Assembly: GCA_000165345.1 (NCBI GenBank)
Contig: CM000433.1
Location: 960,001-1,024,000 of the forward strand
DNA length: 64,000 nucleotides
Reading direction: 5' to 3'
The position numbers and the translations under genes were made by a program. The notes beneath the pieces were generated by a model. It saw only the letters and a program-made list of their open reading frames with translations. It did not search any database and had not been told where the DNA came from. Below, piece by piece: positions 11,600 to 64,000 of the stretch (position 1 is its first letter; every line of letters begins with the position of its first letter).

Positions 11600-11643
11600 T
11601 TTGAAGATTACTATTATNGGTTATTATTAATATTACTTTTCNN
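11538..11643. other. Low-quality segment with scattered N bases that disrupt a CDS
   Basis: N at 11538, 11580, 11584, 11618 and 11642-11643. Confidence 0.9.
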
Positions 11644-13958: not shown

Positions 13959-14300
13959 TTTTAATATAAATATATTTATATTATTTTATTCTATTTATTT
14001 AACTCGATCTTAAATGAATAACTTGTATTTATAACCAGAATAAATTCATACAAAAAAAATAACAACTGTCAATTTATTTTATATATTTTAATTATTGCAA
14101 CTTTTCCTCTTTATCTCTTAATTTTTTATTTACTTAAACATAACGATTTCTTAAAATCCATTAATTTTTTGTAATGTTATTAATTACTCAAGTATTACAA
14201 TTACTAATCTTTTTTTTTATTTATATTTCTTCTATTTTTATTATTTATTAATGTCAATCATGGATCTATTTTATAATCACTTGCATTTTTTTTGCAAAAC

Positions 14301-14331
14301 CGCATGCAGATTGCATGCATACTGACACGTG
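14301..14331. promoter_or_regulatory. Two GCATGCA (AP2-type) sites plus a CACGTG palindrome upstream of the ApiAP2 gene
   Basis: cgcatgcagattgcatgcatactgacacgtg seen directly. Lies in a 1.4 kb divergent intergenic region. Confidence 0.45.
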
Positions 14332-18023: not shown

Positions 18024-18259
18024 TAAATTCACTTTTAATACTGAAAGAATTAATACTTGAATGATTTAGAGTTCAACAAAAAAAACAAATAAATAGTAGC
18101 TTTGATATATTATAGTTAAGTTTATTATAAATCTAGAGTGACTAAGGTATAATAACTATTGCAAACTTCAAGAATGTGCTTAATATTATTTACTTGATTT
18201 TATAAGTAGAAAAAAGTGGTATTGAAACATTTCTATTTTCATTAATTACTATATGGTGT

Positions 18260-19735: not shown

Positions 19736-20066
19736 TTTGAAAGATTGTGTTATTTTGCCTCTTTCTTCTTTTTAATGTTTTATACGTAATTTCCTACTCA
19801 CTTCAACAAGAATTCTGACACTTAACCTTCTAAAATCTGTTCCTCCTTTATTTAAAACTTATGTTTAAAAAAAAAAAAAAGAGAAAGGAAAAAACCTGCC
19901 TTAATATTCCCTTTTTCCCTCTAAACACTAAATTTATCAAATTAAATATTCTCTGAAAAATATCAACTAAATCACTTTTAAACTTATTTTCTTATATACT
20001 CGCTTAATATCAAATTAAGCCTTGTATTAGTACTAATCACTTTCTGACTAATTTAATATTTACCAG

Positions 20067-20086
20067 GGCGCCAAAATCTTGGCGCC
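20067..20086. promoter_or_regulatory. Paired GGCGCC palindromes (ggcgccaaaatcttggcgcc) about 330 bp upstream of UTP18
   Basis: Seen directly. GGCGCCAAA is an E2F-like motif class. Confidence 0.45.
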
Positions 20087-20144
20087 TATTGAAATTAAAA
20101 TTGGCTGAAAATGGAAATGCATGTGCAAAGAGTAATAATGTGAA

Positions 20145-42082: not shown

Positions 42083-42541
42083 AAAAAAAGTCAATCATTT
42101 AACTTTTCTCAATAAACTTCATCATTTCCATGATTATTGCCTTAAATTAGCTATTTAAGTAATTAACTTCTTTTTTAATTTCTAAATCCATGGTTTTTTC
42201 ACCTTTCTTTCTCCCTATCCCCTACTTCCCCTCTCACTGATTCCTCACTTTACTGATATCTACGAGTTTCTCACATAAGAATTCAATTAAACTGCACAAA
42301 TCATGTGGGATCTGGGTATGGAAGATAAAAAAATCTTTAATTCTTTCTCAACCATAATTCTCCCAATACTTTAATTTCCCCATATTGAAATTCATAATAT
42401 TAATGTTTTGGCGCCTACACACAACTTTTTTTTTTCTTTTCAAAAGATTTTTTAAATAAAAGAATACAACTTATAAAATAGTTGCTTAAAATATATCTAC
42501 TTTAAAAATATTTGTAGAACTAGTAGCAAATAGTTCTGAAT

Positions 42542-50187: not shown

Positions 50188-52038
50188 ATGGAAAATCCAC
50201 AAAATATTGTCAAACATGCATTCAATGAAGCTATTAAGAACTTGTTTCCAGAGTTTGATAAAGAAGCAATAATTGCAATATCAAATCCAAACTTTGGAGA
50301 TTATCAGTGTAATAGTTGTATGACCATTTTCTCGCAATTTAAAGGTAAATTAGAAGGAATAAAAAGCCCACGAGACATTGGAATGAAGATTAAAGATTAT
50401 ATTGAGAAAAATGGTGATTTGTCAATAAATTTTAAATCCATAGAAGTTGCACCACAAGGATTTATTACAATAAAGTTATCAGATGAATTTATTCAAAATA
50501 ATTTATCTAAATTACAAGAAATGGATGAGGTAAAAGTAACTCCAACAATGAAATTCCACTGCAAAAGTGGAAGAAAAACTCCAAAAGTAATTGTAGATTT
50601 CTCATCACCAAACATTGCCAAAGAAATGCATGTTGGACACTTAAGATCTACAATTATTGGTGATACAACATGTAGAATTCTTGAATATTTAGGATTTGAA
50701 GTATTAAGAGTTAATCACGTTGGAGATTGGGGTACTCAATTTGGCATGCTTATTGAATATTTAAAGGAAGAATATCCCACTTTTGTTGAGAATTTACCAG
50801 AAATATCAGATTTACAAGAATTCTATAAGAACTCAAAGAAAAGGTTTGATACTGATCCACAATTTAAGTTAAGGAGCCAACAGAATGTTGTTATGTTACA
50901 AGGGGGTGATCAAGATGCTTTGACTGCTTGGAAAAAGATTTGTGAGGTTAGCCGAGTTGAATTTCAGAAAATTTACGATCGACTTGGAATTCGTCTTGAG
51001 GAATTTGGTGAAAGTTATTATAATGATATGATCCCTGGGGTTGTTAAAATGTTGGATGAAAAGGGTATTCTTAAGCTTGATAATGGAGCTCAGTGTGTTT
51101 ATACTAAAATTAATGAAATACCTTTAATGGCTGTTAAAAGTGATGGAGGATATGGATATGATTCAACAGATTTAGCTGCAATTCACCATAGATTAATCAC
51201 TTTAGATGCTGATTGGGTTATCTACACTACTGATATGGGCCAAGAAGAACATTTTATGAAACTTTTCGACGTTGCTGAAACTATGGGATGGCATGATCCT
51301 TCTAATACAAGACTATTTTTCATTGGATTTGGAGTTATTCAAGGAGAAGATGGAAAAAAGTTTAAAACAAGAAGTGGTGATGTTGTCAAATTAACTGAAC
51401 TTATTGACGAAGGTGTTGCTAGAGCAAAGAAAGAATTAGTTGACAGAAGAAATCAAAGAAGATCTGATCAAACAAATAAATCAAATACAGATGTTGAAGT
51501 TGATCATCCAAATATTGATGATTCTGACTTGGATTTAATGGCAAATACTATTGGTCATGCAGCTATTAAGTACTTTGATTTGAAGCAAAATAGACTTACT
51601 AATTACAGATTTTCATTTGATCGAATGTTGGATCCAAAAGGTAATACTGCAGTTTATTTACTATATGCATATGCAAGAATTTGTGCAATCTTTAGAAAAG
51701 TTGAATTCATTCAATCTGATAATAGTATGGTAATTAAACAGAAAGTTTCAAACTTTAAGCTTAAGATTTCTAATAATGTTGAACGAAAATTGTCTATTCA
51801 GTTACTCAGATTCCCTGAAGTTTTTGATGGAATTTTGAATGATTTCTTCCCCAATAGACTTGCTGATTATTGTTATGAATTATCCGAGTGTTTTGCACAA
51901 TTTTATACTGAATGCAGAATTATTGGATTAGAAGAACAGCAACTTGAACAAAGTAGGCTTTTACTTTGTTTCTTAACAAAACAAATTCTTTTAAAAGGAC
52001 TTGATTTATTGGGAGTTGAAACTTTGGAGAAGATTTAA
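50188..52038 (+). CDS. RARS: Arginyl-tRNA synthetase (class I)
   Basis: N-terminal Arg-tRNA-binding domain. HIGH-region PNIAKEMHVGHLRSTIIGD. GDWGTQFGMLI. DALR anticodon-binding C-terminal domain. Confidence 0.9.
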   Translation: MENPQNIVKHAFNEAIKNLFPEFDKEAIIAISNPNFGDYQCNSCMTIFSQFKGKLEGIKSPRDIGMKIKDYIEKNGDLSINFKSIEVAPQGFITIKLSDEFIQNNLSKLQEMDEVKVTPTMKFHCKSGRKTPKVIVDFSSPNIAKEMHVGHLRSTIIGDTTCRILEYLGFEVLRVNHVGDWGTQFGMLIEYLKEEYPTFVENLPEISDLQEFYKNSKKRFDTDPQFKLRSQQNVVMLQGGDQDALTAWKKICEVSRVEFQKIYDRLGIRLEEFGESYYNDMIPGVVKMLDEKGILKLDNGAQCVYTKINEIPLMAVKSDGGYGYDSTDLAAIHHRLITLDADWVIYTTDMGQEEHFMKLFDVAETMGWHDPSNTRLFFIGFGVIQGEDGKKFKTRSGDVVKLTELIDEGVARAKKELVDRRNQRRSDQTNKSNTDVEVDHPNIDDSDLDLMANTIGHAAIKYFDLKQNRLTNYRFSFDRMLDPKGNTAVYLLYAYARICAIFRKVEFIQSDNSMVIKQKVSNFKLKISNNVERKLSIQLLRFPEVFDGILNDFFPNRLADYCYELSECFAQFYTECRIIGLEEQQLEQSRLLLCFLTKQILLKGLDLLGVETLEKI

Positions 52039-52276
52039 AAAAAAAGAGGAAAGAAAAACAATGAAATAATTTAATCCAATTTAAACTGCTAGTGAATTTA
52101 TTACACAGCAATTCAACTCTTTTTTAATATCAAATAAGATAATTATAACTAAATTGGAAAATTTTATCTTAATTGTAAATATTTCAAAGTCTAAGGTTAT
52201 ATATTCGTACAAACAAGTAATCGCATTAAACATATATAAAATTAGGTATCTTTATTTCAAAACCCAACCAAACTTT

Positions 52277-53236
52277 TTAATCAGAATCTGAAAAGATAAC
52301 ATGACTATTTGATGGCTTAATCTTTGTCTTTGTTTCTGATTCAGATATTGGGTAGTTGTTAGAGTTTGATTTGTCTTTGTATTTATCTTTGTATTTATCT
52401 TTGTCTTTCTTAACATTTATCTTATTAGAGCTTTTCTTTGTATTACTACTGTTTCTTGTTTGATTGCCTCCAATCATATATTCAATCTTTTTTATTGGTC
52501 TTTTTAAAGTATCATGTTCCTTATTCAGATTCTGATCGCATTCTAAATCATCACTATCATCCTGAGCAAGAAATGAATCTTTCAATGACAAATTATTAAT
52601 TTCTGAAGTCTTAATCTTCTTTCTTCTAAGCTCTTCCTTAAGTTCTTGAACATCATTAATATATTCTTCTCTTCTTTTAATCATCTCAGAATCTAATTCT
52701 GTATTTGAAAATAAAGGAATATATTTCCTTTCTTTAAAAAATGGAAGTAATCTTATGTAATCTTCATATCTTTTATAAACTAATATTTTTGATTTAATTT
52801 TCAAAATTTTATCTCTAACTGTATCATTTTCTGAAAAACTTAAATCCAAACATTCTTTAGGATTTCCCTCTGCATTATCAATATCACTATTATTTTCATC
52901 TTGTTGTATTTCTTCTTCAATTTCATTATTTCTTAATATTTCTACCAAGTCCTTTTGGAGTTGATTAATTTTCCTTTTAACTTTAACAAGTTCAACAAAT
53001 CTCATAGTCTTTTGCTTATTCTTCTTATATTGAAGATATTTATTAAGCTTCTTCTTATATGAGCTATTATTCTTGGAGATTGTATCTTTTAAAACTTTTG
53101 CTTCCTCTTCTAATTCAATCTTCTTTTCTTCAGAAATTTGAAATTTCTTATTTTCCAATAATCTTTTAATATCTCTGATTCTTTGACCTGCACTTCTGGC
53201 CTTTTTAGCTTTATTTTCTTTATTAGATTCACTCAT
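52277..53236 (-). CDS. Lys-rich coiled-coil nucleolar-type protein, possibly rRNA-processing protein Efg1-like (DUF2361)
   Basis: N-terminal KKARSAGQRIRDIKRLL and a later MRFVELVKVKRKI. These resemble the Efg1 blocks IKKQIRDVERLL and MVRFFEKKKAMRK. Weak evidence. Confidence 0.3.
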   Translation of the reverse strand: MSESNKENKAKKARSAGQRIRDIKRLLENKKFQISEEKKIELEEEAKVLKDTISKNNSSYKKKLNKYLQYKKNKQKTMRFVELVKVKRKINQLQKDLVEILRNNEIEEEIQQDENNSDIDNAEGNPKECLDLSFSENDTVRDKILKIKSKILVYKRYEDYIRLLPFFKERKYIPLFSNTELDSEMIKRREEYINDVQELKEELRRKKIKTSEINNLSLKDSFLAQDDSDDLECDQNLNKEHDTLKRPIKKIEYMIGGNQTRNSSNTKKSSNKINVKKDKDKYKDKYKDKSNSNNYPISESETKTKIKPSNSHVIFSDSD

Positions 53237-53714
53237 TTTTTTTTTTGTAATTCTTATGAATTTTATAGAATTTCACTCTGTTAATAAATCTCAAAAAGAT
53301 ATTTTTATTATTTAGAAAAACATAAAATAAATTTATCCTATATTCCACTTGGTTTATTATTCAAGCTTAAAGTAACCTCTAATAAGCCAATTATATTGTA
53401 TTGTATTATCTTTTATATAGGTAATGTGAAAGATTAATAATATTGACTTTTTTGAAATAAAATTAAAATATATATTTCCAAGTTAAACTCCAGCTACCAA
53501 GTCCTCCAACTTCTAATCTTCTAAAAGTTTCTCTCTCAAAATTTGAAAATCTTTTTTTTCTTTTCTTCCTTTTTAGTTTATTTTTGACATTTTAATTATA
53601 AATAATTTCCCAGAAGCCCGCCCAAACTGAAAAATGCTATACCGGTGACAACTAATAATTTTTTTTTTGTGGAAAACAGATCAAAATTGACCAAAAATTT
53701 AGGAAAAATAAAAT

Positions 53715-55241
53715 TTGAAAAAAATAAAAGTCTGTATGCCGTTATATTTGGTTTGGTTTGTTTTACACCCTGATTATCATGAATTTAGACTTCAGGAATT
53801 GGAATCTTTAGCTGAATGTTTTGGAGTTGAAAAAAATAAGCTTTGGGTCACTAATTTACCAGAATACGTTTCATGGCATCATCGTAAATATGATAGACCT
53901 TTAGCAAATGATCATAGTAGTTCTTTTGCATGGGTATGTTTACCAAATGAAGATATTGCTTTACGTATCTTGCAAAGAAGTGTTCTAGTAAGAGGTTTTA
54001 TGCAAGTTTGGGCAAGTGGAACAGATCATGAACAAGTTGAGAAAGTTCTTAAAGAAGATGAATATGTTAAAAAAGAATTTCTTAGAAAGTATATACATGA
54101 TGATGTTGATTTTTCTTGGAAAGTTAAAAGTATTGGAAAAAAGTTATCTAGACCTGAACAAGTTTCAAGAATGAATCATTATAGTTTTCTATTTAAAGGT
54201 ACTGAGACTGTTAATTTAAAAGATCCTTCTTTAAGTCTGGGAATTTTTGAAGATTGGAGATCTATTCATAATCAAGAAAAACTTCCAATAGAAGGAATTT
54301 CTAAGGAGCAAATTTCTAAGCTTCAATCTACTATGCTTAAAAGGGTTTATCTTGGAAGAATAATAGAGAATCAAAGCTCTACTGATCTTGGAGATAAATC
54401 TCTATGGTGGTTGAAGTATACTTTAAATAAGAGACCAATATTAGGTCCAACAACTATGGATAATGAATTAGCCTTTATAATGTGTAATATTGCTCAAGTT
54501 AAAAAAAATGATATAGTTTTTGATCCATTTTGTGGAACTGGTGGTATCCTTATTTCAGCTTCTCATTTTGGAGCTACATGTTTTGGATCTGATCTTGATC
54601 TTAGAGTAATTAATGGATGGTTTTGTTCTTATGTTAATCCACATATGATTAAAGATCAATCTATTAAAGAAGACCATTCAAAATCTATTTATTCTAATTT
54701 TGACTATTATAAGCTTGAAAGACCTGGTATTATTAGAATGGATATTTCTCAGAGTTCAATTAGATCCTCATGGATAGATGCCATTGTTTGCGATCCTCCT
54801 TATGGAATTAGAGCAACTTCTAGAACCACTAATTCTAATTCAAATCAACCTACTAGTGTTTATTCAGGTAATAACTATATCCATACATTTATTCAGGATT
54901 ACAATTATAGGAAATCTTCACCATCATCATCATCATCTTCTATATCAAATACTCATCCATCTACAGGAAAGAATACTTTTGGGTCTCATCAGCCAATTGA
55001 TGAAATGATCTTTGACCTATTATCATTTGCATCTAAGACTTTGGTTATTCATGGACATCTTGTCTTTCTTTTACCTCTTATGGTATCAGATGCCAATATT
55101 GTAATTCCTAATCTTATTGAAAATTGGAAGCATATCTTTTCTATTGACTTTCCTTATATGCAAACATTAGGAGGAGGTCTTGGTAGATTGTTAGTACATA
55201 TGAAACTAATCAACAAAAATGAAGAATTATTTGGGATCTAA
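53715..55241 (+). CDS. TRMT11: tRNA (guanine10-N2)-methyltransferase Trm11/TRMT11
   Basis: SAM motif VFDPFCGTGGILISA and catalytic VCDPPYGIRA (DPPY). An N-terminal THUMP-like region. A poly-Ser insertion is encoded by a (tca)n run. Confidence 0.7.
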   Translation: MKKIKVCMPLYLVWFVLHPDYHEFRLQELESLAECFGVEKNKLWVTNLPEYVSWHHRKYDRPLANDHSSSFAWVCLPNEDIALRILQRSVLVRGFMQVWASGTDHEQVEKVLKEDEYVKKEFLRKYIHDDVDFSWKVKSIGKKLSRPEQVSRMNHYSFLFKGTETVNLKDPSLSLGIFEDWRSIHNQEKLPIEGISKEQISKLQSTMLKRVYLGRIIENQSSTDLGDKSLWWLKYTLNKRPILGPTTMDNELAFIMCNIAQVKKNDIVFDPFCGTGGILISASHFGATCFGSDLDLRVINGWFCSYVNPHMIKDQSIKEDHSKSIYSNFDYYKLERPGIIRMDISQSSIRSSWIDAIVCDPPYGIRATSRTTNSNSNQPTSVYSGNNYIHTFIQDYNYRKSSPSSSSSSISNTHPSTGKNTFGSHQPIDEMIFDLLSFASKTLVIHGHLVFLLPLMVSDANIVIPNLIENWKHIFSIDFPYMQTLGGGLGRLLVHMKLINKNEELFGI

Positions 55242-55519: not shown

Positions 55520-58500
55520 TTACCTTGTTTCATTAAAAGTTGCATTCTTTAAAATAGATTGTAGTTTCTGAGTTTGTATAGGTTTCAAGGATTCTGATAT
55601 TAGAATATCATTTGAAAGATTATGAGAACTATTCATTGATGATGATGATGATTGGGACTCATTAAATATTTGTACATGAGAATTTTTGTTATTGTTCTGA
55701 CTACTCTTGTAGTCATTATCATGATCACTTAAACGTGACAAATATTTATTATTGGAAGAATTGTTATTAACCAAAGTCCAGAACAAATTTGTTGAAGATG
55801 GACACATACAAGTATTTAAATTCTGAGATAAGTTACTTAAGTTCTTTTTACCAAAAGAAATAGCAACTTCATTACTAACTTGTTTTAAACAGTATAATGA
55901 TGAAAATGAACTTGTAATTTGGTTAGCTCCCAAAACTTGTTTATTTGGATCATTTGAATAGGAAATAATACTTTGAACAGTCTTTGAAATCTGTGATAAA
56001 GTAGAAACTGGATTACTTTTTTGATTATCATTATTTATTTGACTATCTTTATCAGTCTTAAGGAACATCTTTTCAATAGATTTTTGAATATCATTAATAT
56101 CAGTAGTTTCATATTCATCAGTAAATTCTTTATTAGTAGATAAAGAATCATCAATAACCATTTCAGTATTTTCTAATGATTGTTTATTAATATCTTGTAG
56201 AACTTGTGAAATAATTTCACCAGATGTATCCAAAGCTCGTATTTCTTGAATATAAATGTCATAACTGGATAACAAAAGCACTAAATATATAGAGATTTTT
56301 GTGTTTTCAACTTTAAATTGAATAATAGCATCCTTAACAGATGTTTCTTCAAATAAATCAATCTCAATATCTTCCAAACATTTAATTTGTTCAAGTTTAG
56401 ATTTGGATTTAGTACTTTTTACAAATTGATAAAGAGAAATAAGTGCTTTTTGTTTTGTATTTTTAACAATAGCAAATTGAAATGGGATTTCTTCTTTTAA
56501 GAATTGGGTAAAATGACCATAATCTTGTATATTAATAAGCTTGGAATCAGAATTAAGTTGAATATTCTCTTGATGAATTAACTCCATGGAAGTAATATTC
56601 CATATAAAAAGCTTTCCAGAAGAAGGAGAAATTCCTAATAGATAATATTCATGATTATGCATAACAATAAGCATTTGAGTAATTTGAGCTCCTTTAACAG
56701 ATAAATAACCAATATCACTTTCAAGTAGAATTGAATATTGTTTATTCCAATTATATACTATAATACCTTTAGATGAAGCCAAGAAAAGCTTATTAAATGC
56801 ATGACTAAAACAAGTAGAATAAATTTCAATTTCAGATTCTGGATGAATAATTGATGAATTGACCCATTCTTTAATTTGATTTTTATAAATCCAACATTTA
56901 ATTTCACGTTTACAAGTAATTGTTATAAAACATGTATTATTATCTTTATTAATATCATGATTATCATTTTCATATAATATATGATCAGATTCTGCTTCTT
57001 CTATTGAAACAACTTGGTCAATATGAGCAATAGGATAGTTAGATACTAATTCAAATTGTGTTTTATCTTTAGAAAGAAGAATTTTCCAAAATTTAAGATT
57101 ATATGCTCTCTTTTCATCATTAAAATGATCAAATTTTTGACTTTCAATAGTAATAGCAGATTTTGAATTCTTTGAATAATATGCATCAATTAATACAACT
57201 CTAGTAATATCATCTTGTACAAGCTTTGATGAAGAAATTCCATCTCCAACTTTTGAAACATAACTTTCTTCAGGCTTACAAAGAATACTAGAATGCCATA
57301 CATCTTTAATAAGATCATGAATATGCAACTTGAATGGATGAGAAATAATGGATACTAAAAGCTTTGTAGGATTCAAGAATTGAGATCCTAGAATTTTGAT
57401 TTTAGGATAATCCATAATACTACCTTTAATTGCATTGAATGGAGTAGAAATACCATATATAGTATTTAAGATTTTATTATGTACTAGATCAATAATTTTA
57501 ATACTGTTATCAGAGCATACAATAGCTGCTATTAATGAAGGTAAAGTATTAGAACCAGATACTTGAGTATAATCATGATTTTGAGTATCCATACAAACTT
57601 TTTCTTTTCTAAATGATGTAATATTATATATAGGAGCTCCCAATCTAGGAATAAATTGTCTAGTACCATTATTATTTGGATTTTTGTAATGATTTCTGGT
57701 ATGAATCAGATAAGAATCTGAAGAGAAAGTTTGCCTCCATAATACTAGAACAGCTTCTTCTCCACCTGATAATATAGTATCTGTACCAGGTATAATATTT
57801 AAAGAATTTAATTCATGTGAATGCCAGTGAGATATTGATGTTTTAACATTATATTTATAGATCATTTTTTCAATATCAGAATTTTCAGAAATGGAAGGAG
57901 CATTTTTCCACATTTGTATACCTTCTTTTGATGAAGAAGGAGGAATAAACCAATAAGTTAACCTACCATAAGCATCACCAGTAGCAACAAATTGTTGATC
58001 TTCAGAAAGTGTAAGCGATAGAATATATTCGGAATGTCTAAAACGAATAATTTTATCAGGGTATTGAGTATTCCAAATAATTAAGATATTTTTCCATATA
58101 AAACAGAATAAAGACTCATCCGAAGATACTTGGAAATTTAAAGCTCCATATGAGAAGTTAATAATCTTTTTGAGAGATTTTTGAATAAATTTGGAATGAT
58201 TAGATTTTTGATTAACAGAAGTATTAAATTTTGAAATTATATCAGAAATGGGAATTTTATATAAGGAAACATTAGTATCAATCAAAGTATCTTGATCTTT
58301 TGCTTCACTTATGATAAAATATATATTGTTTTTTGCAACTTTCAAATCAATAATACATCGACCAATTTCAATCTCTATTACAGACTTCTTTTCTTTATGA
58401 TTTAAGATATCATTTAAATGAAAAATTCGTATTAAACCACTAACAGTTGTAGTAACAATAAATTCCTCATTTTGATCAGACTTTATCACACCAAGACCTG

Positions 58501-58717
58501 TGATAATTTCTTTTGAAGCAGAAAATTGAGATTTAGACTCTCCATTTCCCAAAGTATCATATACATAAATTTCGTTATCTCTTCCTTTTGGGATTAATAA
58601 TAAATTCCCATTATTGCAAAACACTGGTGGTACTTTTAGAGAAAAGCATCCTCCTTTGTAACCTTTATTCATCTCTTCTCCTTTTCCATAAAAGACTAAT
58701 AATACCAATCTATACAA
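55520..58717 (-). CDS. Large WD40-repeat protein, 1065 aa, possibly UTP17/WDR75-like nucleolar t-UTP
   Basis: Multiple WD-like repeats. The N-terminal pattern GGCFSLKVPPVFCNNGNLLL...IYVYDT...ITG resembles the WDR75 N-terminus. The UTP17 label is low confidence; coding status is high. Confidence 0.35.
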   Translation of the reverse strand: MYRLVLLVFYGKGEEMNKGYKGGCFSLKVPPVFCNNGNLLLIPKGRDNEIYVYDTLGNGESKSQFSASKEIITGLGVIKSDQNEEFIVTTTVSGLIRIFHLNDILNHKEKKSVIEIEIGRCIIDLKVAKNNIYFIISEAKDQDTLIDTNVSLYKIPISDIISKFNTSVNQKSNHSKFIQKSLKKIINFSYGALNFQVSSDESLFCFIWKNILIIWNTQYPDKIIRFRHSEYILSLTLSEDQQFVATGDAYGRLTYWFIPPSSSKEGIQMWKNAPSISENSDIEKMIYKYNVKTSISHWHSHELNSLNIIPGTDTILSGGEEAVLVLWRQTFSSDSYLIHTRNHYKNPNNNGTRQFIPRLGAPIYNITSFRKEKVCMDTQNHDYTQVSGSNTLPSLIAAIVCSDNSIKIIDLVHNKILNTIYGISTPFNAIKGSIMDYPKIKILGSQFLNPTKLLVSIISHPFKLHIHDLIKDVWHSSILCKPEESYVSKVGDGISSSKLVQDDITRVVLIDAYYSKNSKSAITIESQKFDHFNDEKRAYNLKFWKILLSKDKTQFELVSNYPIAHIDQVVSIEEAESDHILYENDNHDINKDNNTCFITITCKREIKCWIYKNQIKEWVNSSIIHPESEIEIYSTCFSHAFNKLFLASSKGIIVYNWNKQYSILLESDIGYLSVKGAQITQMLIVMHNHEYYLLGISPSSGKLFIWNITSMELIHQENIQLNSDSKLINIQDYGHFTQFLKEEIPFQFAIVKNTKQKALISLYQFVKSTKSKSKLEQIKCLEDIEIDLFEETSVKDAIIQFKVENTKISIYLVLLLSSYDIYIQEIRALDTSGEIISQVLQDINKQSLENTEMVIDDSLSTNKEFTDEYETTDINDIQKSIEKMFLKTDKDSQINNDNQKSNPVSTLSQISKTVQSIISYSNDPNKQVLGANQITSSFSSLYCLKQVSNEVAISFGKKNLSNLSQNLNTCMCPSSTNLFWTLVNNNSSNNKYLSRLSDHDNDYKSSQNNNKNSHVQIFNESQSSSSSMNSSHNLSNDILISESLKPIQTQKLQSILKNATFNETR

Positions 58718-58846
58718 GAGAATAGAAGAGTAATACTATCTCTATTAAGTATATATATATGTATATATATTAATGTATGTTTTCTCTTGCCTTGTTACCT
58801 TTTCTTGGTCTGTCTAACTTTGACTCCTTTTTAGGCACTTTCAAGA

Positions 58847-58877
58847 GGCGCCATAGCTGCGCCAAATTTTGCCCGCC
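58847..58877. promoter_or_regulatory. GC motif cluster (GGCGCC, GCGCCAAA, GCCCGCC) in the 160 bp spacer upstream of the large WD40 gene and downstream of TK
   Basis: ggcgccatagctgcgccaaattttgcccgcc seen directly. Confidence 0.45.
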
Positions 58878-59465
58878 TTAGAAATTGTATTCTTCACAAT
58901 TAATTATATGATGTTTTCTGCATACAGAAGTATAAATAGAATTGTCACCAATAAGAATTTGTTCGCCAGAAAAAACAGGTTCTCCATTGCTATTTAATCT
59001 GATAGTCATGGTAGCTTTTTTGCCACAGCGACAAATAGTTTTGATTTCAGTAAGTTTATCAGCCCATGCTAATAAGTATTTACTTCCTTCAAATAAATTT
59101 CCCTTAAAGTCTGTTCTCAAACCATAGCATAGTACTGGAATATTTAGCTTATCAACAACAATGCATAATTCTCTAACTTGGAATTTCGTTAGGAATTGGC
59201 TTTCATCAACTAGAACACAATCAATTTTTTCCTTATTATTTTCTTGATTAATAATATCAAGTAGTTTTAAATCAGGAGTGAATGTGTGTGCTTTTTCTGA
59301 GAGACCAATTCTAGAGCAAATTGAGCCTTCTTCAAATCGGCAATCTTTGCTAATTGTAAAGAGAATGGTTTTCATTCCTCTTTCTTGGTAGTTGAATGAG
59401 GATTGAAGAAGAACCGTTGATTTTCCAGCATTCATTGCTGAATAGTAAAAGTATAATTTTGCCAT
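58878..59465 (-). CDS. TK: Thymidine kinase, bacterial (gamma-proteobacterial Tdk) type
   Basis: Near-identity to E. coli Tdk along its whole length: [78 protein letters not shown], and the zinc-ribbon CRCGKKAT...VCRKHH. Confidence 0.9.
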
Positions 59466-59826
59466 TTTATTAAAGTATTTCCAATCTTATTTGCAGTAGG
59501 TATGAGTGATATTATTGCTTTAAAGTATTTATTAGGTAAATTGTTGAATTCTTTGTGTTAGATGGTTTAAAATTTTGTTTTGAGTGATTAATAAAAATAA
59601 ATTTAATTTATTTTTACTTTATGAGTAGTTATTTAATCTCAATTTAGCCTCAAATTTATTACTTGAGAAAAGTGGTTACCTATATATAGATATTAAAAGG
59701 CGCCAAAAGGGTTCATTTTCAGATACTTGAAATGTAAATTGATATTATTATATAAGAGTGGGATTTCGAGTAGAATATATGTTTTTGGTGTGATAATGCT
59801 TTTTAACTTGAGTTTGATAAGAAATT

Positions 59827-62800
59827 ATGATAAGTAGTCTTGAAAATGGGCCTACTGAGGAGGATCTTGAATTATTATTAGGTGGGTATAATAAGGAAGA
59901 GGAAATATTATTTGTTGATTTGAGGGAAGAATCAGATGAATTAGATAAAGTTTATTACCAGGAAAATTCCAATTTTTTGAATCCAGTTAGCTATATGAAA
60001 AGGATTGGCGATGAACAAAATCAAGATGCACCAGATAAATTGAAAAAGCGTAGAGTTAAGTCAAAGAAAACAAGACCAAGGAGGAAAAAAAGTAAATTGA
60101 AAGATGATTCTGATAAACTTTCAATAGACTCTGATGAATTTGTTGTACCAGATGATGAGGTGATTCCGCCTGACTGGGAGTATAACTTTGAAAAGCCAAT
60201 AGTTTGTCAAAATGTTACATTTTATAATAAAGTTGACAATATTTTAACTGAGAAGCTTGAATGTAATGATAGTAGTTTGGACGAAGATTTTTTCAATAAT
60301 TGTGAAATTAATGAAGGCGGATTTAAAGGTAGAAAACGTAAAAATGGAATGATTGGGATTGATATTGATAAAGAATATATTGATGATAAAGACAATACTG
60401 CATTAATTGTTGAAAGCCATTTACTGAAAGATGACATAGATGATGAAGACCAGGTAATTTTTGTAGATAGGAATTTGAACTCTTTTATTAAGCAGGTTGA
60501 TAAAAATAAGACCATAGATGAAGTTAGGACAAATGATTCTGAACCAGTTATTGTTGAAAGCGATGAATTCATTATAAATACAGAGATTTTCAATTATGGG
60601 ATTTTTAATATATACTTTAAAATGATGGATATTATTGAAGATTTTGAAAATTATAACAATTTTCAATGTTTTTCAGAAAGTTCATTTAAACTTGAAGGAA
60701 AAGATATTTCCACTCTTTTGATAGTATTCAAATCAATTGATATTGAATTCAGCAGTTTCAGCAATAATAGTAATAGTAGCTGTAGCAGTGGCAATATTAG
60801 TAATAATAATATTGGAAGTTTTGACTTGATTCAAAGTTATCTTGACTTATTTTACAATAATATCTTAAATTCATCAAAAGAGACTCAAAATTTTAATTCA
60901 ACATTTTTAAAGGAATTACACTTTGAAATGATTGGTTTTATTGAGTCAAAGTTTGATGAGATTGTTCAATTAAACCCATCTGAATGGAATTATAAGGTAT
61001 TGTTTTTGTTTTTAAGAATAATTGGACTAACTTTATTTGTTGAGCACTTGCTAATACATACAATAAAGATTGAAAAAACTTCAGAGTCAAAGATCTCAAA
61101 TTTAAATGAAGAATTTTCAGTTTTTTTTGTCAATGAGAATATTTTGAACAAGAATAATGTATCCAAGATTCTTAGACAAATCTTGAAAAAAATGTTGGAT
61201 CATTTATTAAATTTGACTTTAAAAGAAAACTTGAATGGTAATATAAGTAGTATTCATTGCATTTTGATTTTGACTTTATTCATTAATTTTAAAGTAAGTG
61301 GGGACTTGATTTTCACTTATATTTCAGAAAAATATATTAAAGATTTAAATATAACTTTTGATTTTTTTTTAATTTATTATTATGCAATGATTATTTATAG
61401 TAATTTTACTGATTTGAAGTTTGATATTTCCAAGTTATTTGCCAAATTTATCTTTGATTTAAAGGGCAATTCTTCAAATAAAAATGAATGTTTGAACCAT
61501 TATTACTTATTAAATGAGTATTTAAAATCAGTTAATGTATATCAACTTAATAATATAAATTGCAAGAATAAATTCGAATCTCTATTATATTGTTTAAGTG
61601 ATTCAAATTTCTTTTACAATATTAATAAAGAAAATGAAGTAAATATTTGTTTGTCATTATTTAGCATTGATAAATTAAATTCAGAAATCTTCTACTCAAA
61701 TCTTCCATTAAATAACTTGAAATTAAAAGAAATTCATCATAATATGAGGTGTTTTGATAAAAAATTGAGAAATATACTATTCTTGAAATCTGGAAAAGAT
61801 GAGGAGCATTGCAAAAATTATGAGAAAATGAAAAATAACTTGATTTTACCAATTAATTTTAAAGAAATAAATCTTCTTGAATTAACAGAAGAAATTTACT
61901 TTAATTTGTTGAACTTATTGGTAAATTTGATAAAAAATATCAATGAGTTAAATTTACTTTTAAAGTTTCTTCATATGCATTTTGATATTGGAAAAGCTTC
62001 GAATATAAGTAAAAATGATATTATAATGCATTATTTAGTATATAATACTTTATTCATAGTATTATTATTAAATTCAAATTTGTTTGAATTTGAAATTCCA
62101 ATAATAAATTTATATTATACTTATTTAGAAGAAAATGACCAGATTAATAATTTTCTTCTAACTGAAATGGTATTAGATAATGAAAACACTGAAAACAATC
62201 ATTTATCTGAGAAGATTAAATTGAATAAAAATTATAAACTGCTTATTCAAACTCTATTAGGGTCTTCCAAATTTGGTATCCAAATTGAATTAAAGTTCCA
62301 CATTGATATGCTTTATAATATTATTACATTAATAGAACCATTGGCAGAAAATAAATATATATTTGAATATTTAAAACAAATTAATAATCTCAAGTTAAAT
62401 GAACTATTTTATTATAATTCAAATAAAATTATCCCACAAAATATTCCCAATAATTATTTATTAAATTCCAACGAATTAATTTTGCACTCAAAATTAATTA
62501 GTAATTTTAATTCAAATATTTTGTTTGCACACGTAATTAATACCGGTATTGAATTATTGCCAAATGCATGCAAAATTAATGTGGACATAAAACAAAATGA
62601 ATTATTAATTAGATTGATAATATATTTTAAAATAATAATAGAGGAAAAATTGGATATTTATTTTGAATCAATCAATAAATTATCAGATGTAGAATTGGAT
62701 AAACCTTTTATTAATTTTATAGATGAGATTTTTAATTTAATAAATAATTTATCAATTTTATTGGTTTGGAATTTTTTGGAGATAAATGATACAACAGCAT

Positions 62801-63117
62801 TTGAATTTTTAATTTATTATTTTGGTTTAATTTCAGACAAATTATTTTATTATATAAAATATTATAAAAATGGTCAAAACAACAAAGGAAAGCAAATTTG
62901 TGAATTATTTATTTTTCATATGTACAGGAATTTGGGAGGTTTTATTCTAAGATTTTTCAACAAATTTAAAGAAAATATTAAGATAGAATGTGAAATTTAT
63001 TCATTTATGATTGTTTTTTATTTGTTAATGTTTAATATTAATCATTTTAATTTTAAAAGTTATTATAAAGAATATTTAAAAATTGAAAAAGAAATTTTTG
63101 AAAAAATCCAATTTTAA
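59827..63117 (+). CDS. Hypothetical protein of 1096 aa or more, Asn/Ile/Leu/Lys-rich; probably continues past an N gap
   Basis: Long ORF with an acidic N-terminus. It terminates a few bp before an N-rich gap, after which a long open frame resumes. Confidence 0.55.
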   Translation: MISSLENGPTEEDLELLLGGYNKEEEILFVDLREESDELDKVYYQENSNFLNPVSYMKRIGDEQNQDAPDKLKKRRVKSKKTRPRRKKSKLKDDSDKLSIDSDEFVVPDDEVIPPDWEYNFEKPIVCQNVTFYNKVDNILTEKLECNDSSLDEDFFNNCEINEGGFKGRKRKNGMIGIDIDKEYIDDKDNTALIVESHLLKDDIDDEDQVIFVDRNLNSFIKQVDKNKTIDEVRTNDSEPVIVESDEFIINTEIFNYGIFNIYFKMMDIIEDFENYNNFQCFSESSFKLEGKDISTLLIVFKSIDIEFSSFSNNSNSSCSSGNISNNNIGSFDLIQSYLDLFYNNILNSSKETQNFNSTFLKELHFEMIGFIESKFDEIVQLNPSEWNYKVLFLFLRIIGLTLFVEHLLIHTIKIEKTSESKISNLNEEFSVFFVNENILNKNNVSKILRQILKKMLDHLLNLTLKENLNGNISSIHCILILTLFINFKVSGDLIFTYISEKYIKDLNITFDFFLIYYYAMIIYSNFTDLKFDISKLFAKFIFDLKGNSSNKNECLNHYYLLNEYLKSVNVYQLNNINCKNKFESLLYCLSDSNFFYNINKENEVNICLSLFSIDKLNSEIFYSNLPLNNLKLKEIHHNMRCFDKKLRNILFLKSGKDEEHCKNYEKMKNNLILPINFKEINLLELTEEIYFNLLNLLVNLIKNINELNLLLKFLHMHFDIGKASNISKNDIIMHYLVYNTLFIVLLLNSNLFEFEIPIINLYYTYLEENDQINNFLLTEMVLDNENTENNHLSEKIKLNKNYKLLIQTLLGSSKFGIQIELKFHIDMLYNIITLIEPLAENKYIFEYLKQINNLKLNELFYYNSNKIIPQNIPNNYLLNSNELILHSKLISNFNSNILFAHVINTGIELLPNACKINVDIKQNELLIRLIIYFKIIIEEKLDIYFESINKLSDVELDKPFINFIDEIFNLINNLSILLVWNFLEINDTTAFEFLIYYFGLISDKLFYYIKYYKNGQNNKGKQICELFIFHMYRNLGGFILRFFNKFKENIKIECEIYSFMIVFYLLMFNINHFNFKSYYKEYLKIEKEIFEKIQF

Positions 63118-63118
63118 A

Positions 63119-63157
63119 NGGGATTNNCNANNNTNGNNTNNCAGNCANNAANAATNN
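63119..63157. other. Assembly gap or low-quality segment (N-rich)
   Basis: Dense N characters in the sequence. Confidence 0.95.
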
Positions 63158-63158
63158 A

Positions 63159-64000
63159 AGAAACGTTATCGGAAAATTAAAAAATTTTCATTTTATTAAT
63201 TATTATATTAAAAAAAAAATTTGTAATAACTTGAATTCTATTTATAAATTGGTTGGAGTCATTAGTAATGAATGGAAATCAAAAATTAACAAAATATTAG
63301 ATTATATTGAATTTATTGATTTATCTAATTTAAAGGAATCTTCGGATTCAGAATCAATCAAATTTAATATTAATGATTTAATACTAGAATTGTATTTTGA
63401 TTATTATATTTCTAATCTGGATTGTGAAATTTTACAAATTATTAATAAGAAAGTTATCAATTATTCTATTAATTTATATTCCACTAAGAATATATATGGA
63501 TTATTGATCAATTTTATTTTAAAGGGAATACATGAAAAAAATAATAATTCAAATATGGAACTTATTTTGAATTGGAATCATATTAATAACTCGATTAAAG
63601 GATATATTAATCAATTAAAAAATGACCTGTTAATAAATATTTGGATTAATTATGATTTTATACAAATGTTTATGATACCTAGTAGCTTCTCATGCAGATT
63701 TATATATATGAGAATACATTTTTGGATTAATATTCTAAGTATTCCACTTTCAAAAATGTTAATTAATTCTAATGAAGATTTTAATAATGTAAGAATTACA
63801 CTTGAATATCCAATGAAGTATTTTAAGAAGTTACTGATAATCAAAGATTTTAATATATTTAAAGAAAATATTATAAATTTCTCAATAAACTTTATTATTG
63901 ATTCTGTAAGATTAATTCAATTATCTTACTTTAAAATTATTTTAAAAATGTTTATTTCTAAAATTCAAAAAAATAATACTTTACATAATTTAGAGTTTGA
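63159..64000 (+). CDS. Open reading frame with no stop from the N gap to the window edge (280 or more codons); likely a continuation of the 59827 gene or a 5'-partial gene
   Basis: My own translation of the frame beginning at 63159 (RNVIGKLKNFHF...) runs stop-free to position 64000. It is absent from the ORF track only because it has no bounded start and stop. Composition matches the upstream protein. Confidence 0.45.

What the first reader, a model, noticed from the sequence alone, without database searches (positions are those of the whole stretch)
58878..59465. Bacterial-type thymidine kinase embedded among eukaryotic housekeeping genes (known Cryptosporidium HGT)
The 195-aa protein is almost residue-for-residue like gamma-proteobacterial Tdk ([37 protein letters not shown] against E. 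coli [37 protein letters not shown]), far closer than to any eukaryotic TK1. It is flanked by unmistakably eukaryotic genes (a WD40 protein, Trm11, ArgRS) and sits in host-like AT-rich composition. This matches the established horizontal acquisition of TK by Cryptosporidium, which is the basis for the parasite's sensitivity to TK-activated nucleoside prodrugs. It is therefore a strong taxonomic anchor for the contig and a drug-target locus.
Basis: partly seen in the sequence, partly recalled or inferred. Interest (0 to 1): 0.6.

Follow-up and report, generated by a model that had tools for sequence, protein, structure and literature searches.

The report
Cryptosporidium parvum's bacterial-derived thymidine kinase gene
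This is the already well-studied thymidine kinase gene (cgd5_4440) of the gut parasite Cryptosporidium parvum, which its ancestors took from a gamma-proteobacterium-like bacterium.

Summary
The 195-aa ORF at 58878-59465 (-) is real. It is a full-length type II thymidine kinase (Pfam PF00265, E 1.8e-54; NCBIfam equivalog NF003300, 290 bits against a cutoff of 195). Its protein is 100% identical to C. parvum thymidine kinase (Q6S4W6, CPATCC_002342, i.e. cgd5_4440), so the window is C. parvum chromosome 5.

It is 63% identical to E. coli K-12 Tdk with no gaps over 186 residues, but only 24% identical, with gaps, to human TK1. After other Cryptosporidium, nearly all named hits are Gammaproteobacteria.

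It is not contamination:
- The exact protein lies on 24+ independent contigs.
- The gene order (large protein, TK, WD40, Trm11, Efg1, ArgRS) is kept in chipmunk genotype I, C. bovis and an unnamed relative.
- The upstream side is kept in C. muris.
- GC3 (22%) and codon choice match the neighbours.
- dN/dS is about 0.12-0.16.

My likelihood analysis together with the synteny favours one acquisition before the gastric/intestinal split. The donor cannot be resolved beyond a gamma-proteobacterial-type Tdk clade.

The literature already documents the transfer, the enzyme, prodrug activation, and a viable knockout that becomes antifolate-sensitive. Verdict: observation confirmed, interpretation supported, already known, low interest.

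The parts
58878..59465 (-). Thymidine kinase coding sequence (195 codons plus TAA stop, no intron). This is C. parvum TK, cgd5_4440.
   Evidence: ORF. Pfam PF00265 covers residues 2-186 of the 176-position model, E 1.8e-54. NCBIfam NF003300 scores 290.5 bits against a cutoff of 195. 100% identical to Q6S4W6_CRYPV / QOY41748.1.
59415..59441 (-). Codons 9-17, SAMNAGKST: P-loop (Walker A) for the ATP phosphates.
   Evidence: Aligns with human TK1 GPMFSGKST. M11, N12, A13, G14, K15 and T17 are invariant in 40 Cryptosporidium and bacterial sequences. The functional role is inferred from established TK1 structures.
59202..59207 (-). Codons 87-88, Asp-Glu of VDESQF: Mg2+ site and catalytic base, equivalent to human TK1 D97/E98.
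   Evidence: Alignment to human TK1 IDEGQF. D87, E88, Q90 and F91 are invariant.
59025..59033 (-). Codons 145-147, C-R-C: the first two ligands of the structural zinc site at the base of the lasso domain.
   Evidence: C145 and C147 are invariant. They align with the CxxC of human TK1 and of Ureaplasma TK.
58911..58922 (-). Codons 182-185, C-R-K-H: the third and fourth zinc ligands (Cys182, His185).
   Evidence: Read directly from the sequence. C182 and H185 are invariant. Ureaplasma TK has the same CxxH arrangement. Human TK1 has CxxC.
59466..59826 (.). 361-nt AT-rich (24% GC) intergenic region shared with the divergently transcribed upstream gene. It is the presumed TK promoter and 5' UTR, and contains one E2F-like site, TTTTGGCGCCTTT, with core GGCGCC at 59699-59704.
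   Evidence: The length matches the 362-nt TK upstream region listed for cgd5_4440 in PMC1779779. The motif matches the E2F-like consensus DTTGSCGCCH of PMC3734150. This site is not conserved in four other species, so assigning it to TK is only an inference.
58718..58877 (.). Intergenic region between the TK stop codon and the WD40 gene. It holds the TK 3' end and the neighbour's promoter, with a GGCGCC at 58847-58852, 26 nt after the TK stop.
   Evidence: The same motif sits at exactly +26 in the unnamed relative (L007) and in C. bovis (L002).
55520..58717 (-). Context: WD40 / WDR75-like gene immediately downstream of TK. Public models are 1050 aa, so the real start is probably the Met at about 58672.
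   Evidence: Pfam hits are both below gathering: PF23869 6.2e-06 and WD40. Called 'WD40 repeat protein' in C. parvum records. Syntenic in L001, L002 and L007.
50188..55241 (.). Context: ArgRS (50188-52038, +), Efg1-like (52277-53236, -) and Trm11-type methyltransferase (53715-55241, +).
   Evidence: Pfam. Same order and orientation in chipmunk genotype I and C. bovis.
59827..63995 (+). Context: large, fast-evolving Cryptosporidium-specific gene transcribed divergently from TK. The ORF appears to stop at 63117 only because of ambiguous bases at 63119-63157.
   Evidence: No Pfam hit. 77% identical to the 1585-aa chipmunk genotype I gene over residues 1-1103, then 83% over 63153-63995 in another frame. 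N-containing stretch. Its C. muris orthologue also lies next to TK (tblastn E 3.7e-15).

Best explanation
The ORF is the thymidine kinase gene of Cryptosporidium parvum (cgd5_4440, chromosome 5). [quoted passage not shown] This gives a parasite with no de novo pyrimidine synthesis a second route to dTMP besides DHFR-TS.

The gene was acquired once, from a bacterium carrying a gamma-proteobacterial-type Tdk, in the common ancestor of gastric and intestinal Cryptosporidium. It has since been fully domesticated, with host base composition and codon usage, a eukaryotic intergenic promoter region, and purifying selection.

Shown here: identity, family membership, intact catalytic and zinc-site residues, bacterial affinity, synteny, amelioration and selective constraint.

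Taken from the literature: enzymatic activity, prodrug activation, dispensability, and the role in antifolate tolerance.

Inferred: the role of individual residues (P-loop 9-17, Asp87/Glu88, Arg156/Tyr178 of the lasso, and zinc ligands Cys145/Cys147/Cys182/His185) and promoter use.
For: Identity:
- 100% match to C. parvum TK records. The same protein lies on 24+ contigs, including >1 Mb chromosomes (GCA_015245375.1 CP044418.1).
- The upstream intergenic length matches the published value for cgd5_4440.

Family:
- Pfam and NCBIfam matches above curated cutoffs.
- AF2 model with pLDDT 84. Its top 50 PDB fold matches are all type II thymidine kinases.
- Catalytic and zinc residues are invariant across 40 sequences.

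Bacterial origin:
- 63% identity with no gaps to E. coli Tdk, against 24% to human TK1.
- Of 1.84 billion cluster representatives, the best is a 205-aa protein at 62% identity and no separate Cryptosporidium representative scores above it, suggesting (my inference) that the Cryptosporidium TKs are subsumed in that cluster at 50% identity.
- Human + vaccinia + Ureaplasma split from everything else at 100% bootstrap. Cryptosporidium plus named gamma-proteobacteria form a clade at 62-78%.
- Other apicomplexans lack the gene (PMC545779).

Not contamination:
- Synteny in L001, L002, L007 and, on the upstream side, L008.
- GC3 is 22% against 14-22% in neighbours and 36% in E. coli tdk. Synonymous codon choice fits the window's own genes better than the E. 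coli model (-0.935 against -1.084).
- Only 61% nucleotide identity to E. coli tdk.

Constraint: dN/dS 0.12-0.16.

Single acquisition:
- The likelihood placement of the gastric clade is best on the stem of the intestinal clade.
- Monophyly has lnL -6880.65, against -6887.06 for the neighbour-joining topology and -6904.55 for gastric within Enterobacterales. RELL support is 0.91 / 0.07 / 0.016.
- Sites I49 and T154 are shared by both Cryptosporidium groups.

Function from the literature: PMC4777385, PMC7448269, PMC10820218, PMC11447440.
Against: There is nothing substantial against the main statement. The weak points are these:
- Neighbour-joining trees recover monophyly of all Cryptosporidium TKs in only 18-40% of bootstraps. 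C. muris TK is slightly closer in raw distance to Hafnia or Yersinia Tdk than to C. parvum TK.
- The likelihood preference for monophyly over the neighbour-joining topology is not significant on its own (delta lnL 6.4, SE 4.7).
- The likelihood analysis used my own code, a BLOSUM62-derived rate matrix and a limited topology comparison, not a full tree search.
- The donor lineage is unresolved. Many of the unnamed cluster representatives could not be named.
- The downstream side of the locus is not syntenic in C. muris.
- The primary enzymology and HGT papers (Sun 2010, Striepen 2004) were not available to read, so they are cited second-hand.
Confidence: 0.97

Rival explanations
1. The ORF is bacterial contamination or a chimeric join in the assembly, not part of the parasite genome.
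For: The protein is 60-66% identical to enterobacterial Tdk. The window has a stretch of ambiguous bases 3.6 kb away, at 63119-63157, so the assembly is not perfect.
Against: The identical protein with the same neighbours occurs on 24+ contigs from independent assemblies, including >1 Mb chromosomes. Orthologues sit in the same gene order in at least four other Cryptosporidium genomes. GC3 and codon usage are host-like. Nucleotide identity to E. coli tdk is only 61%. No bacterial protein exceeds about 66% identity.
Confidence: 0.003
2. The gene was inherited vertically. It is an ancient eukaryotic or mitochondrion-derived TK that Cryptosporidium kept and other apicomplexans lost.
For: Type II TKs are widespread in eukaryotes (PMC4433323). 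Some unnamed metagenome and metatranscriptome relatives carry eukaryote-like low-complexity insertions (P0160, P0179, P0188).
Against: Identity to human TK1 is 24%, with indels and a different zinc motif (CxC...CxxH against CxxC...CxxC). Trypanosomatid, human and poxvirus TKs are all distant (PDB E-values 1e-8 or worse). Cryptosporidium falls among gamma-proteobacterial Tdk, with eukaryotic TK1 split off at 100%. The gene is absent from other apicomplexans. None of the three insertion-bearing sequences placed (P0160, P0188) or compared (P0179) is specifically associated with Cryptosporidium.
Confidence: 0.01
3. There were two independent transfers, or a later replacement by a second bacterial tdk: one into the gastric lineage (C. 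muris, C. serpentis) and one into the intestinal lineage.
For: C. parvum TK is no more similar to C. muris TK (64%) than to Serratia Tdk (64%). Neighbour-joining trees place the two groups as successive branches rather than one clade, with monophyly at 18-40%. C. muris keeps bacterial-state residues (Y24, Y36, Q129, Y186) where intestinal species differ. The downstream synteny differs in C. muris.
Against: In C. muris, TK lies next to the same upstream genes: a giant ~5000-aa protein, a TSP1-domain protein, and the orthologue of the window's 59827+ gene (E 3.7e-15). The likelihood analysis prefers monophyly (RELL 0.91) and disfavours gastric TK within Enterobacterales (delta lnL 23.9, SE 11.5). 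Two to three sites support the joint grouping and none supports the alternatives. The pattern is what a slowly evolving, short protein with an accelerated intestinal branch would produce.
Confidence: 0.04
4. The gene is a decaying relic with no function.
For: The knockout is viable with no measurable growth defect (PMC4777385). Its reported catalytic efficiency for thymidine is low (PMC11447440).
Against: The ORF is intact in at least 14 Cryptosporidium lineages. dN/dS is 0.12-0.16. All catalytic and zinc residues are invariant. The knockout becomes highly susceptible to DHFR inhibitors, which shows the enzyme works in vivo.
Confidence: 0.005

Closest known systems
Cryptosporidium parvum thymidine kinase, cgd5_4440 (UniProt Q6S4W6; QOY41748.1 CPATCC_002342; XP_625605.1 'thymidine kinase of likely bacterial origin')
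   Same: 100% identical over all 195 residues. Same neighbours. Same upstream intergenic length as published.
   Different: Nothing differs; it is this gene. The 202-aa Iowa II model only adds 7 codons upstream without a start codon and is flagged partial.
Escherichia coli K-12 Tdk (b1238, thymidine/deoxyuridine kinase) and gamma-proteobacterial Tdk in general (NCBIfam NF003300)
   Same: 63% identity with no gaps over 186 residues. Same length class, the same MA(K/Q)[15 protein letters not shown]-terminus, and the same CxC...CxxH zinc motif.
   Different: It is encoded in a eukaryotic chromosome, with GC3 of 22% against 36% and 61% nucleotide identity. It has a different C-terminal tail. Lineage-specific substitutions include K3, F24, F36, K129, T154 and H186. 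It is expressed from a eukaryotic intergenic region.
Eukaryotic cytosolic TK1 (human TK1; trypanosomatid and poxvirus TKs)
   Same: Same fold and chemistry: a type II TK with P-loop, Asp-Glu, lasso and structural zinc. Foldseek probability 1.00.
   Different: Only 24% identity, with indels, and CxxC...CxxC zinc ligands. It separates at 100% bootstrap. This is the TK a eukaryote would be expected to have, and Cryptosporidium does not have it.
Solved bacterial type II TKs (B. cereus 2ja1, Ureaplasma 2b8t, C. acetobutylicum 1xx6, T. maritima 2orw)
   Same: These are the best structural matches to the AF2 model (E 6e-12 to 4e-9). Ureaplasma shares the CxxH half of the zinc site.
   Different: Only 24-29% identity. 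No gamma-proteobacterial-type Tdk or Cryptosporidium TK has a solved structure in the PDB copy searched.
Cryptosporidium IMPDH (cgd6_20), the other bacterial gene in the parasite's nucleotide salvage
   Same: The same kind of event: a proteobacterial nucleotide-salvage enzyme acquired by HGT and exploited as a drug target (PMC545779, PMC4777385).
   Different: A separate transfer from epsilon-proteobacteria, in the purine rather than the pyrimidine pathway. It was not examined in this window.

Membership tests
Type II (TK1-like) thymidine kinase, Pfam PF00265 | Full-length match to the family profile above the curated threshold | tested here: met
   PF00265 scores 184.7 bits against a gathering score of 20.6, covering profile positions 1-176 of 176.
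Type II (TK1-like) thymidine kinase, Pfam PF00265 | P-loop (GxxxxGK[ST]-like) plus the Asp-Glu catalytic pair | tested here: met
   SAMNAGKST at residues 9-17 and VDESQF with D87/E88. Both align to human TK1 and are invariant in 40 homologues.
Type II (TK1-like) thymidine kinase, Pfam PF00265 | C-terminal lasso domain with four structural zinc ligands | tested here: met
   C145, C147, C182 and H185 are invariant, as are lasso residues R156 and Y178. Metal binding itself was not tested.
Type II (TK1-like) thymidine kinase, Pfam PF00265 | TK1 fold (alpha/beta nucleotide-binding domain plus small lasso domain) | tested here: met
   AF2 pLDDT 84.2 and pTM 0.79. The top 50 Foldseek PDB hits are all type II TKs at probability 1.00. 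TM is only 0.5-0.6 and rmsd about 14 Å. The C-terminal region (residues ~130-190) is modelled with lower pLDDT, which may contribute.
Type II (TK1-like) thymidine kinase, Pfam PF00265 | Catalyses ATP-dependent phosphorylation of thymidine | not testable with these tools
   Reported for this exact protein in the literature (Sun et al. 2010, cited in PMC10820218 and PMC11447440). The knockout phenotype is in PMC4777385.
Gamma-proteobacterial-type Tdk (NCBIfam NF003300 equivalog) | Score above the equivalog cutoff | tested here: met
   290.5 bits against a cutoff of 195. The four sister TK equivalogs all fall below their cutoffs.
Gamma-proteobacterial-type Tdk (NCBIfam NF003300 equivalog) | Phylogenetic placement with gamma-proteobacterial Tdk rather than eukaryotic TK1 | tested here: met
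   After Cryptosporidium, named hits are Gammaproteobacteria except for one MAG labelled Pirellula. Eukaryotic TK1 splits off at 100% bootstrap. Cryptosporidium plus gamma forms a clade at 62-78%. The exact sister lineage is unresolved.
Cryptosporidium TK orthologue group (cgd5_4440) | Sequence identity to the reference protein | tested here: met
   Exact match to C. parvum records. 98% identity to C. hominis, 97% to C. tyzzeri and 94% to C. meleagridis.
Cryptosporidium TK orthologue group (cgd5_4440) | Conserved chromosomal position | tested here: met
   The same flanking genes occur in chipmunk genotype I, C. bovis and an unnamed Logan relative. The upstream flank is shared with C. muris.
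Horizontally transferred gene (general criteria) | Absent from close relatives of the recipient outside the clade | not tested
   This rests on the literature (not detected in other apicomplexans; PMC545779). No non-Cryptosporidium eukaryote appeared among the top 120 hits of a Cryptosporidium-profile search, but gregarine data were not searched specifically.

The most novel reading that the evidence does not exclude
The donor may be traceable. One uncultured, fast-evolving bacterial lineage (the P0153 cluster) carries a Tdk that shares signature residues with Cryptosporidium: I49 and T154 with all Cryptosporidium sampled except C. bovis (N154), and F24, F36 and H186 with the intestinal species. 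Its contigs also encode a sigma-54/NtrX-like response regulator, a PBP5-type peptidase and a SIS-domain protein. In my likelihood scan, its best placements all lie on Cryptosporidium branches. If real, this lineage, which is possibly an intracellular or host-associated proteobacterium, would be the closest living relative of the bacterium that gave Cryptosporidium its TK. That would narrow the twenty-year-old 'alpha or gamma proteobacteria' statement.
Probability: 0.12. Interest if true: 0.3.

Novelty: already known. Interest (0 to 1): 0.1.

Why it matters
The locus matters biologically. It is a textbook case of a bacterial gene reshaping a parasite's nucleotide metabolism. It explains why antifolates fail against Cryptosporidium. 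It activates nucleoside prodrugs such as 5-fluoro-2'-deoxyuridine. It is also a dispensable gene that is used as a knockout and PCR control in Cryptosporidium genetics. All of this is already published for this exact gene, so the finding adds no new biology. Its practical value in a scan is as a secure species-level anchor: the window is C. parvum chromosome 5. It also serves as a positive control, showing that a tool-less reader can recognise a real HGT.

Tried and rejected
- **Neighbour-joining trees with 144-153 sequences.** The backbone was unsupported because of many fragmentary or rogue cluster representatives. I replaced them with a 39-48 taxon set and a likelihood comparison.
- **Gastric and intestinal TKs as separate acquisitions.** This was suggested by the NJ trees and raw distances. 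I rejected it as the best reading after the likelihood placement and the shared upstream synteny.
- **Naming the closest 50%-identity representatives to identify the donor.** Most carry no name, which was uninformative beyond 'Candidatus Erwinia haradaeae', 'Gammaproteobacteria bacterium' and 'Holosporales bacterium'.
- **The upstream GGCGCC (59699) as a conserved TK promoter element.** It is not conserved in four other species, so it is only a candidate.
- **P0153, P0149, P0179, P0188 and P0160 as possible eukaryotic carriers of the same TK.** P0153 and P0149 sit on bacterial-type contigs. P0188 and P0160 do not group with Cryptosporidium in the likelihood placement, and P0179 was only compared by identity.
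- **Identifying the P0153 organism through its neighbour gene.** The best hits were only 30% identical (NtrX-like), so it remains unidentified.
- **Primary papers.** Striepen 2004 (PMC365759) and Sun 2010 (PMC2871459) are not held.
- **tRNA and Rfam scans of the window.** Nothing found.
Full report
**Observation**

A 195-codon ORF with an ATG start and a TAA stop lies at exactly 58878-59465 on the minus strand.
- It matches Pfam PF00265 (thymidine kinase) over the whole profile, E 1.8e-54.
- It passes the curated cutoff of NCBIfam equivalog NF003300 (290.5 bits against 195), while the four sister TK equivalogs fail theirs.
- The only overlapping ORF on the other strand is a 61-aa shadow ORF.
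- No tRNA or Rfam family is present anywhere in the window.

**What it is**

An exact-sequence look-up shows that the protein is 100% identical to C. parvum thymidine kinase. The records include UniProt Q6S4W6, QOY41748.1 CPATCC_002342, and a slightly longer 'partial' Iowa II model named 'thymidine kinase of likely bacterial origin'.

The identical protein is encoded on at least 24 contigs from independent assemblies. Four blocks have contigs above 1 Mb, for example GCA_015245375.1 CP044418.1 at about 746 kb, and the same two neighbours are present.

The 361-nt upstream intergenic region matches the 362 nt listed for TK cgd5_4440 in PMC1779779. The window is therefore C. parvum chromosome 5, and the gene is cgd5_4440.

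C. parvum, C. hominis, C. meleagridis and C. tyzzeri were missing from the first homology search. The reason is a database artefact. A fused TK+WD40 gene model from C. hominis (P0126, 1255 aa) has merged the TK and WD40 proteins into one 90% cluster, and that cluster is represented by a WD40 protein.

**Bacterial affinity**

- Against E. coli K-12 Tdk (b1238, fetched), identity is 117/186 (63%) with no gaps, E 1e-89.
- Against human TK1, whose recalled sequence was verified against PDB 2orv and 1xbt, identity is 24% with 16 gap positions, E 1e-8.
- In two searches of 5.8 billion proteins, the hits after other Cryptosporidium are Enterobacterales, Vibrionales, Alteromonadales, Pasteurellales and Marinomonas at 60-66% identity. 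The one exception is a MAG labelled Pirellula.
- In the library clustered at 50% identity, the top representative is a 205-aa protein at 62% identity and no separate Cryptosporidium representative scores above it, which suggests (my inference) that the Cryptosporidium TKs are subsumed in that cluster.
- The best solved structures are only distant relatives (Ureaplasma 2b8t at E 5.8e-14, T. brucei at 2.5e-8, vaccinia at 3.6e-5). No gamma-type Tdk structure exists in the PDB copy searched.

**Trees**

Neighbour-joining trees with bootstrap separate human TK1 + vaccinia + Ureaplasma from everything else in 100% of replicates. Cryptosporidium groups with the named gamma-proteobacteria in 62-78%. 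Intestinal Cryptosporidium form a clade at 98-99% and gastric species (C. muris, C. serpentis) at 100%. All Cryptosporidium together reach only 18-40%.

Because that could hint at two transfers, I wrote a small likelihood program. It used a reversible rate matrix derived from BLOSUM62, four gamma categories, 39 taxa and 187 sites.

Regrafting the gastric clade onto every branch puts it best on the stem of the intestinal clade:

| Placement of the gastric clade (local scan) | lnL |
|---|---|
| Stem of the intestinal clade | -6881.0 |
| Next best, the two placements adjacent to the NJ position | -6887.05 and -6887.06 |
| Best placement next to a single bacterial sequence (the 'Pirellula' MAG) | -6892.7 |

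After full optimisation, three topologies compare as follows:

| Topology | lnL | RELL support |
|---|---|---|
| All Cryptosporidium monophyletic | -6880.65 | 0.91 |
| Neighbour-joining topology | -6887.06 | 0.07 |
| Gastric TK with Hafnia/Serratia/Yersinia | -6904.55 | 0.016 |

Monophyly beats the neighbour-joining topology by 6.4 lnL units (SE 4.7), and beats the Enterobacterales placement by 23.9 (SE 11.5). Two to three alignment sites (I49, T154) unite gastric and intestinal TKs, and none supports the alternatives.

The Cryptosporidium clade sits near the base of the Enterobacterales-Vibrionales-Alteromonadales-Pasteurellales Tdk group. No specific extant sister can be identified.

**Surroundings and the contamination test**

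The neighbours on the 3' side of TK are:
- a WDR75-like WD40 protein (55520-58717, -);
- a Trm11-type methyltransferase (53715-55241, +);
- an Efg1-like rRNA-processing protein (52277-53236, -);
- ArgRS (50188-52038, +);
- a protein kinase and an S9 peptidase further on.

On the 5' side lies a large gene with no Pfam domain, transcribed divergently (59827 onward).

The same order and orientation occur in Cryptosporidium sp. chipmunk genotype I, in C. bovis, and in an unnamed relative from run SRR18693150. Flanking proteins are 29-91% identical.

In C. muris the upstream side is conserved: a giant ~5000-aa protein, a TSP1-domain protein, and the orthologue of the 59827+ gene (tblastn E 3.7e-15). 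The downstream side has been rearranged.

| Measure | TK | Neighbouring genes | E. coli tdk |
|---|---|---|---|
| GC | 31.5% | 22.6-34.8% | 42.2% |
| GC3 | 22.4% | 14-22% | 36% |

Synonymous codon choice fits the window's own genes better than an E. coli model, and a 200-bp GC profile shows no step at the gene borders. Nucleotide identity to E. coli tdk is 61%. A contaminant or chimera is excluded.

**How it works**

The protein keeps every hallmark of a type II TK:
- the P-loop SAMNAGKST (residues 9-17);
- D41 and R43;
- the Asp87-Glu88 pair of VDESQF, equivalent to human D97/E98;
- lasso residues R156 and Y178;
- a Cys145-x-Cys147 ... Cys182-x-x-His185 zinc site.

All of these are invariant in an alignment of 40 Cryptosporidium and bacterial sequences.

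An AlphaFold2 model (pLDDT 84.2, pTM 0.79) finds only type II thymidine kinases among its top 50 PDB matches, at probability 1.00. TM-scores are modest (0.5-0.6). The C-terminal region (residues ~130-190), which contains the lasso domain, is modelled with lower pLDDT, which may contribute.

dN/dS is 0.12-0.16 between C. parvum and chipmunk genotype I, the unnamed relative and C. muris, so the gene is under purifying selection.

From the literature:
- The enzyme phosphorylates thymidine, though inefficiently, and activates prodrugs such as 5-fluoro-2'-deoxyuridine (Sun et al. 2010, as cited in PMC10820218 and PMC11447440).
- The knockout is viable but becomes highly sensitive to trimethoprim and pyrimethamine. 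TK therefore provides the dTMP bypass that makes Cryptosporidium antifolate-tolerant (PMC4777385, PMC7448269).
- The HGT itself was reported as of 'alpha/gamma-proteobacterial ancestry' (PMC545779).

The residue roles and the promoter assignment are my inferences.

**Expression signals**

The hexamer GGCGCC occurs 12 times in the window, against 0.28 expected. Eleven of the 12 lie outside ORFs of 200 aa or more. This is the core of the known E2F-like motif (TGGCGCCA / DTTGSCGCCH), the most abundant putative promoter element in C. parvum (PMC3734150).
- One copy (59699) lies 239 nt upstream of the TK ATG, in the region shared with the divergent gene. It is not conserved in the other four species.
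- The copy 26 nt after the TK stop (58847) is conserved at the same offset in two other species. It most likely belongs to the WD40 neighbour's promoter.

**Comparison with what is known, and novelty**

The gene is the published one, so the finding is already known. The extra results here are incremental:
- The transfer predates the gastric/intestinal split and kept one flank of its insertion site.
- Today's databases point to a gamma-proteobacterial-type Tdk clade rather than to any alpha-proteobacterial one, although a Holosporales MAG also carries this type.

The only lead with some novelty is an uncultured bacterial lineage, the P0153 cluster. Its Tdk shares Cryptosporidium signature residues, and its best likelihood placements are on Cryptosporidium branches (delta lnL 6.1, SE 5.1, over the best alternative; RELL 0.64). 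Its pendant branch is very long (about 1 substitution per site), so long-branch attraction is a live alternative. Its contigs are bacterial, and the organism could not be identified.

**Verdict**

Noticed in passing
window 6670, 20067, 20081, 21810, 32592, 32645, 34033, 40637, 42410, 46550, 58847, 59699: The palindrome GGCGCC occurs 12 times against 0.28 expected. Eleven of the 12 lie outside ORFs of 200 aa or more, mostly about 100-250 nt from a start codon. It matches the published E2F-like motif of C. parvum (PMC3734150).
   Followed up: partly
window 63119-63157: A stretch of interspersed ambiguous bases (N) interrupts the large gene upstream of TK. The ORF seems to end at 63117, but homology to the chipmunk genotype I orthologue resumes at 63153-63995 in another frame (83% identity). 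This may explain why public gene models for it range from 1005 to 1596 aa.
   Followed up: yes
window 55520-59465 (database artefact): A fused TK+WD40 gene model in C. hominis (P0126, 1255 aa, OLQ16273.1/PPA64572.1) has merged TK and the neighbouring WD40 protein into one 90%-identity cluster, represented by a WD40 protein. This hid the C. parvum, C. hominis, C. meleagridis and C. tyzzeri TKs from the first homology search.
   Followed up: yes
L008 (C. muris DS989726.1) 10001-20582: In C. muris, TK keeps its upstream neighbours. The WD40-Trm11-Efg1-ArgRS block is replaced by unrelated genes, and a 1.9-kb gap follows TK. This marks a synteny breakpoint exactly at the 3' side of the transferred gene.
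   Followed up: partly
P0287/P0288 against the window TK: Gastric-species TKs keep bacterial-state residues (Y24, Y36, Q129, Y186). In raw distance they are slightly closer to Hafnia or Yersinia Tdk than to intestinal Cryptosporidium TKs. This misleads neighbour-joining trees, while likelihood recovers Cryptosporidium monophyly.
   Followed up: yes
L009, L012, L013 (P0153 cluster; GCA_046766455.1, DRR337554, JGI 3300068099): An uncultured bacterial Tdk has a ~25-residue insertion and Cryptosporidium-like residues (I49, T154, F24, F36, H186; 'KATMTLR', 'CRTHH'). It places on Cryptosporidium branches in a likelihood scan (RELL 0.64) but on a very long branch. Its neighbours are a divergent NtrX-like sigma-54 regulator, a PBP5-type peptidase and a SIS protein.
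   Followed up: partly
P0160, P0179, P0188 (about 1-kb metagenome/metatranscriptome contigs): These gamma-type TKs carry long low-complexity insertions in the variable loop. They sit on mRNA-sized contigs, and one cluster member comes from a source labelled 'merc' (ERR1719162). They may come from other eukaryotes, which is my speculation. P0188 and P0160 do not group specifically with Cryptosporidium; P0179 was only compared by identity.
   Followed up: partly
P0182 (L014, Holosporales MAG); P0147, P0149, P0164: Some relatives look degenerate or altered. The Holosporales TK lacks about 43 internal residues. P0147, P0149 and P0164 have lost zinc-site cysteines ('ICHTGKKA' / 'ICHSGKKA'; 'VSR' / 'VSG' in place of 'VCR'). 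P0149 sits on a contig with DotI/IcmL, DnaB, Thg1 and a TnpB-like gene.
   Followed up: no
L002 10586-10708 (C. bovis) and P0008 (C. ryanae): The C. bovis and C. ryanae TKs carry a ~40-residue Ser/Asn/Ala-rich C-terminal extension that is absent from all other Cryptosporidium and bacterial sequences.
   Followed up: no
window 16001-18000 and 38001-44000: These regions have clearly higher GC (36-40%) than the window mean of 27.7%. They coincide with long ORFs (15426-18023, 37988-42082, 42542-44974). I did not examine them further.
   Followed up: no
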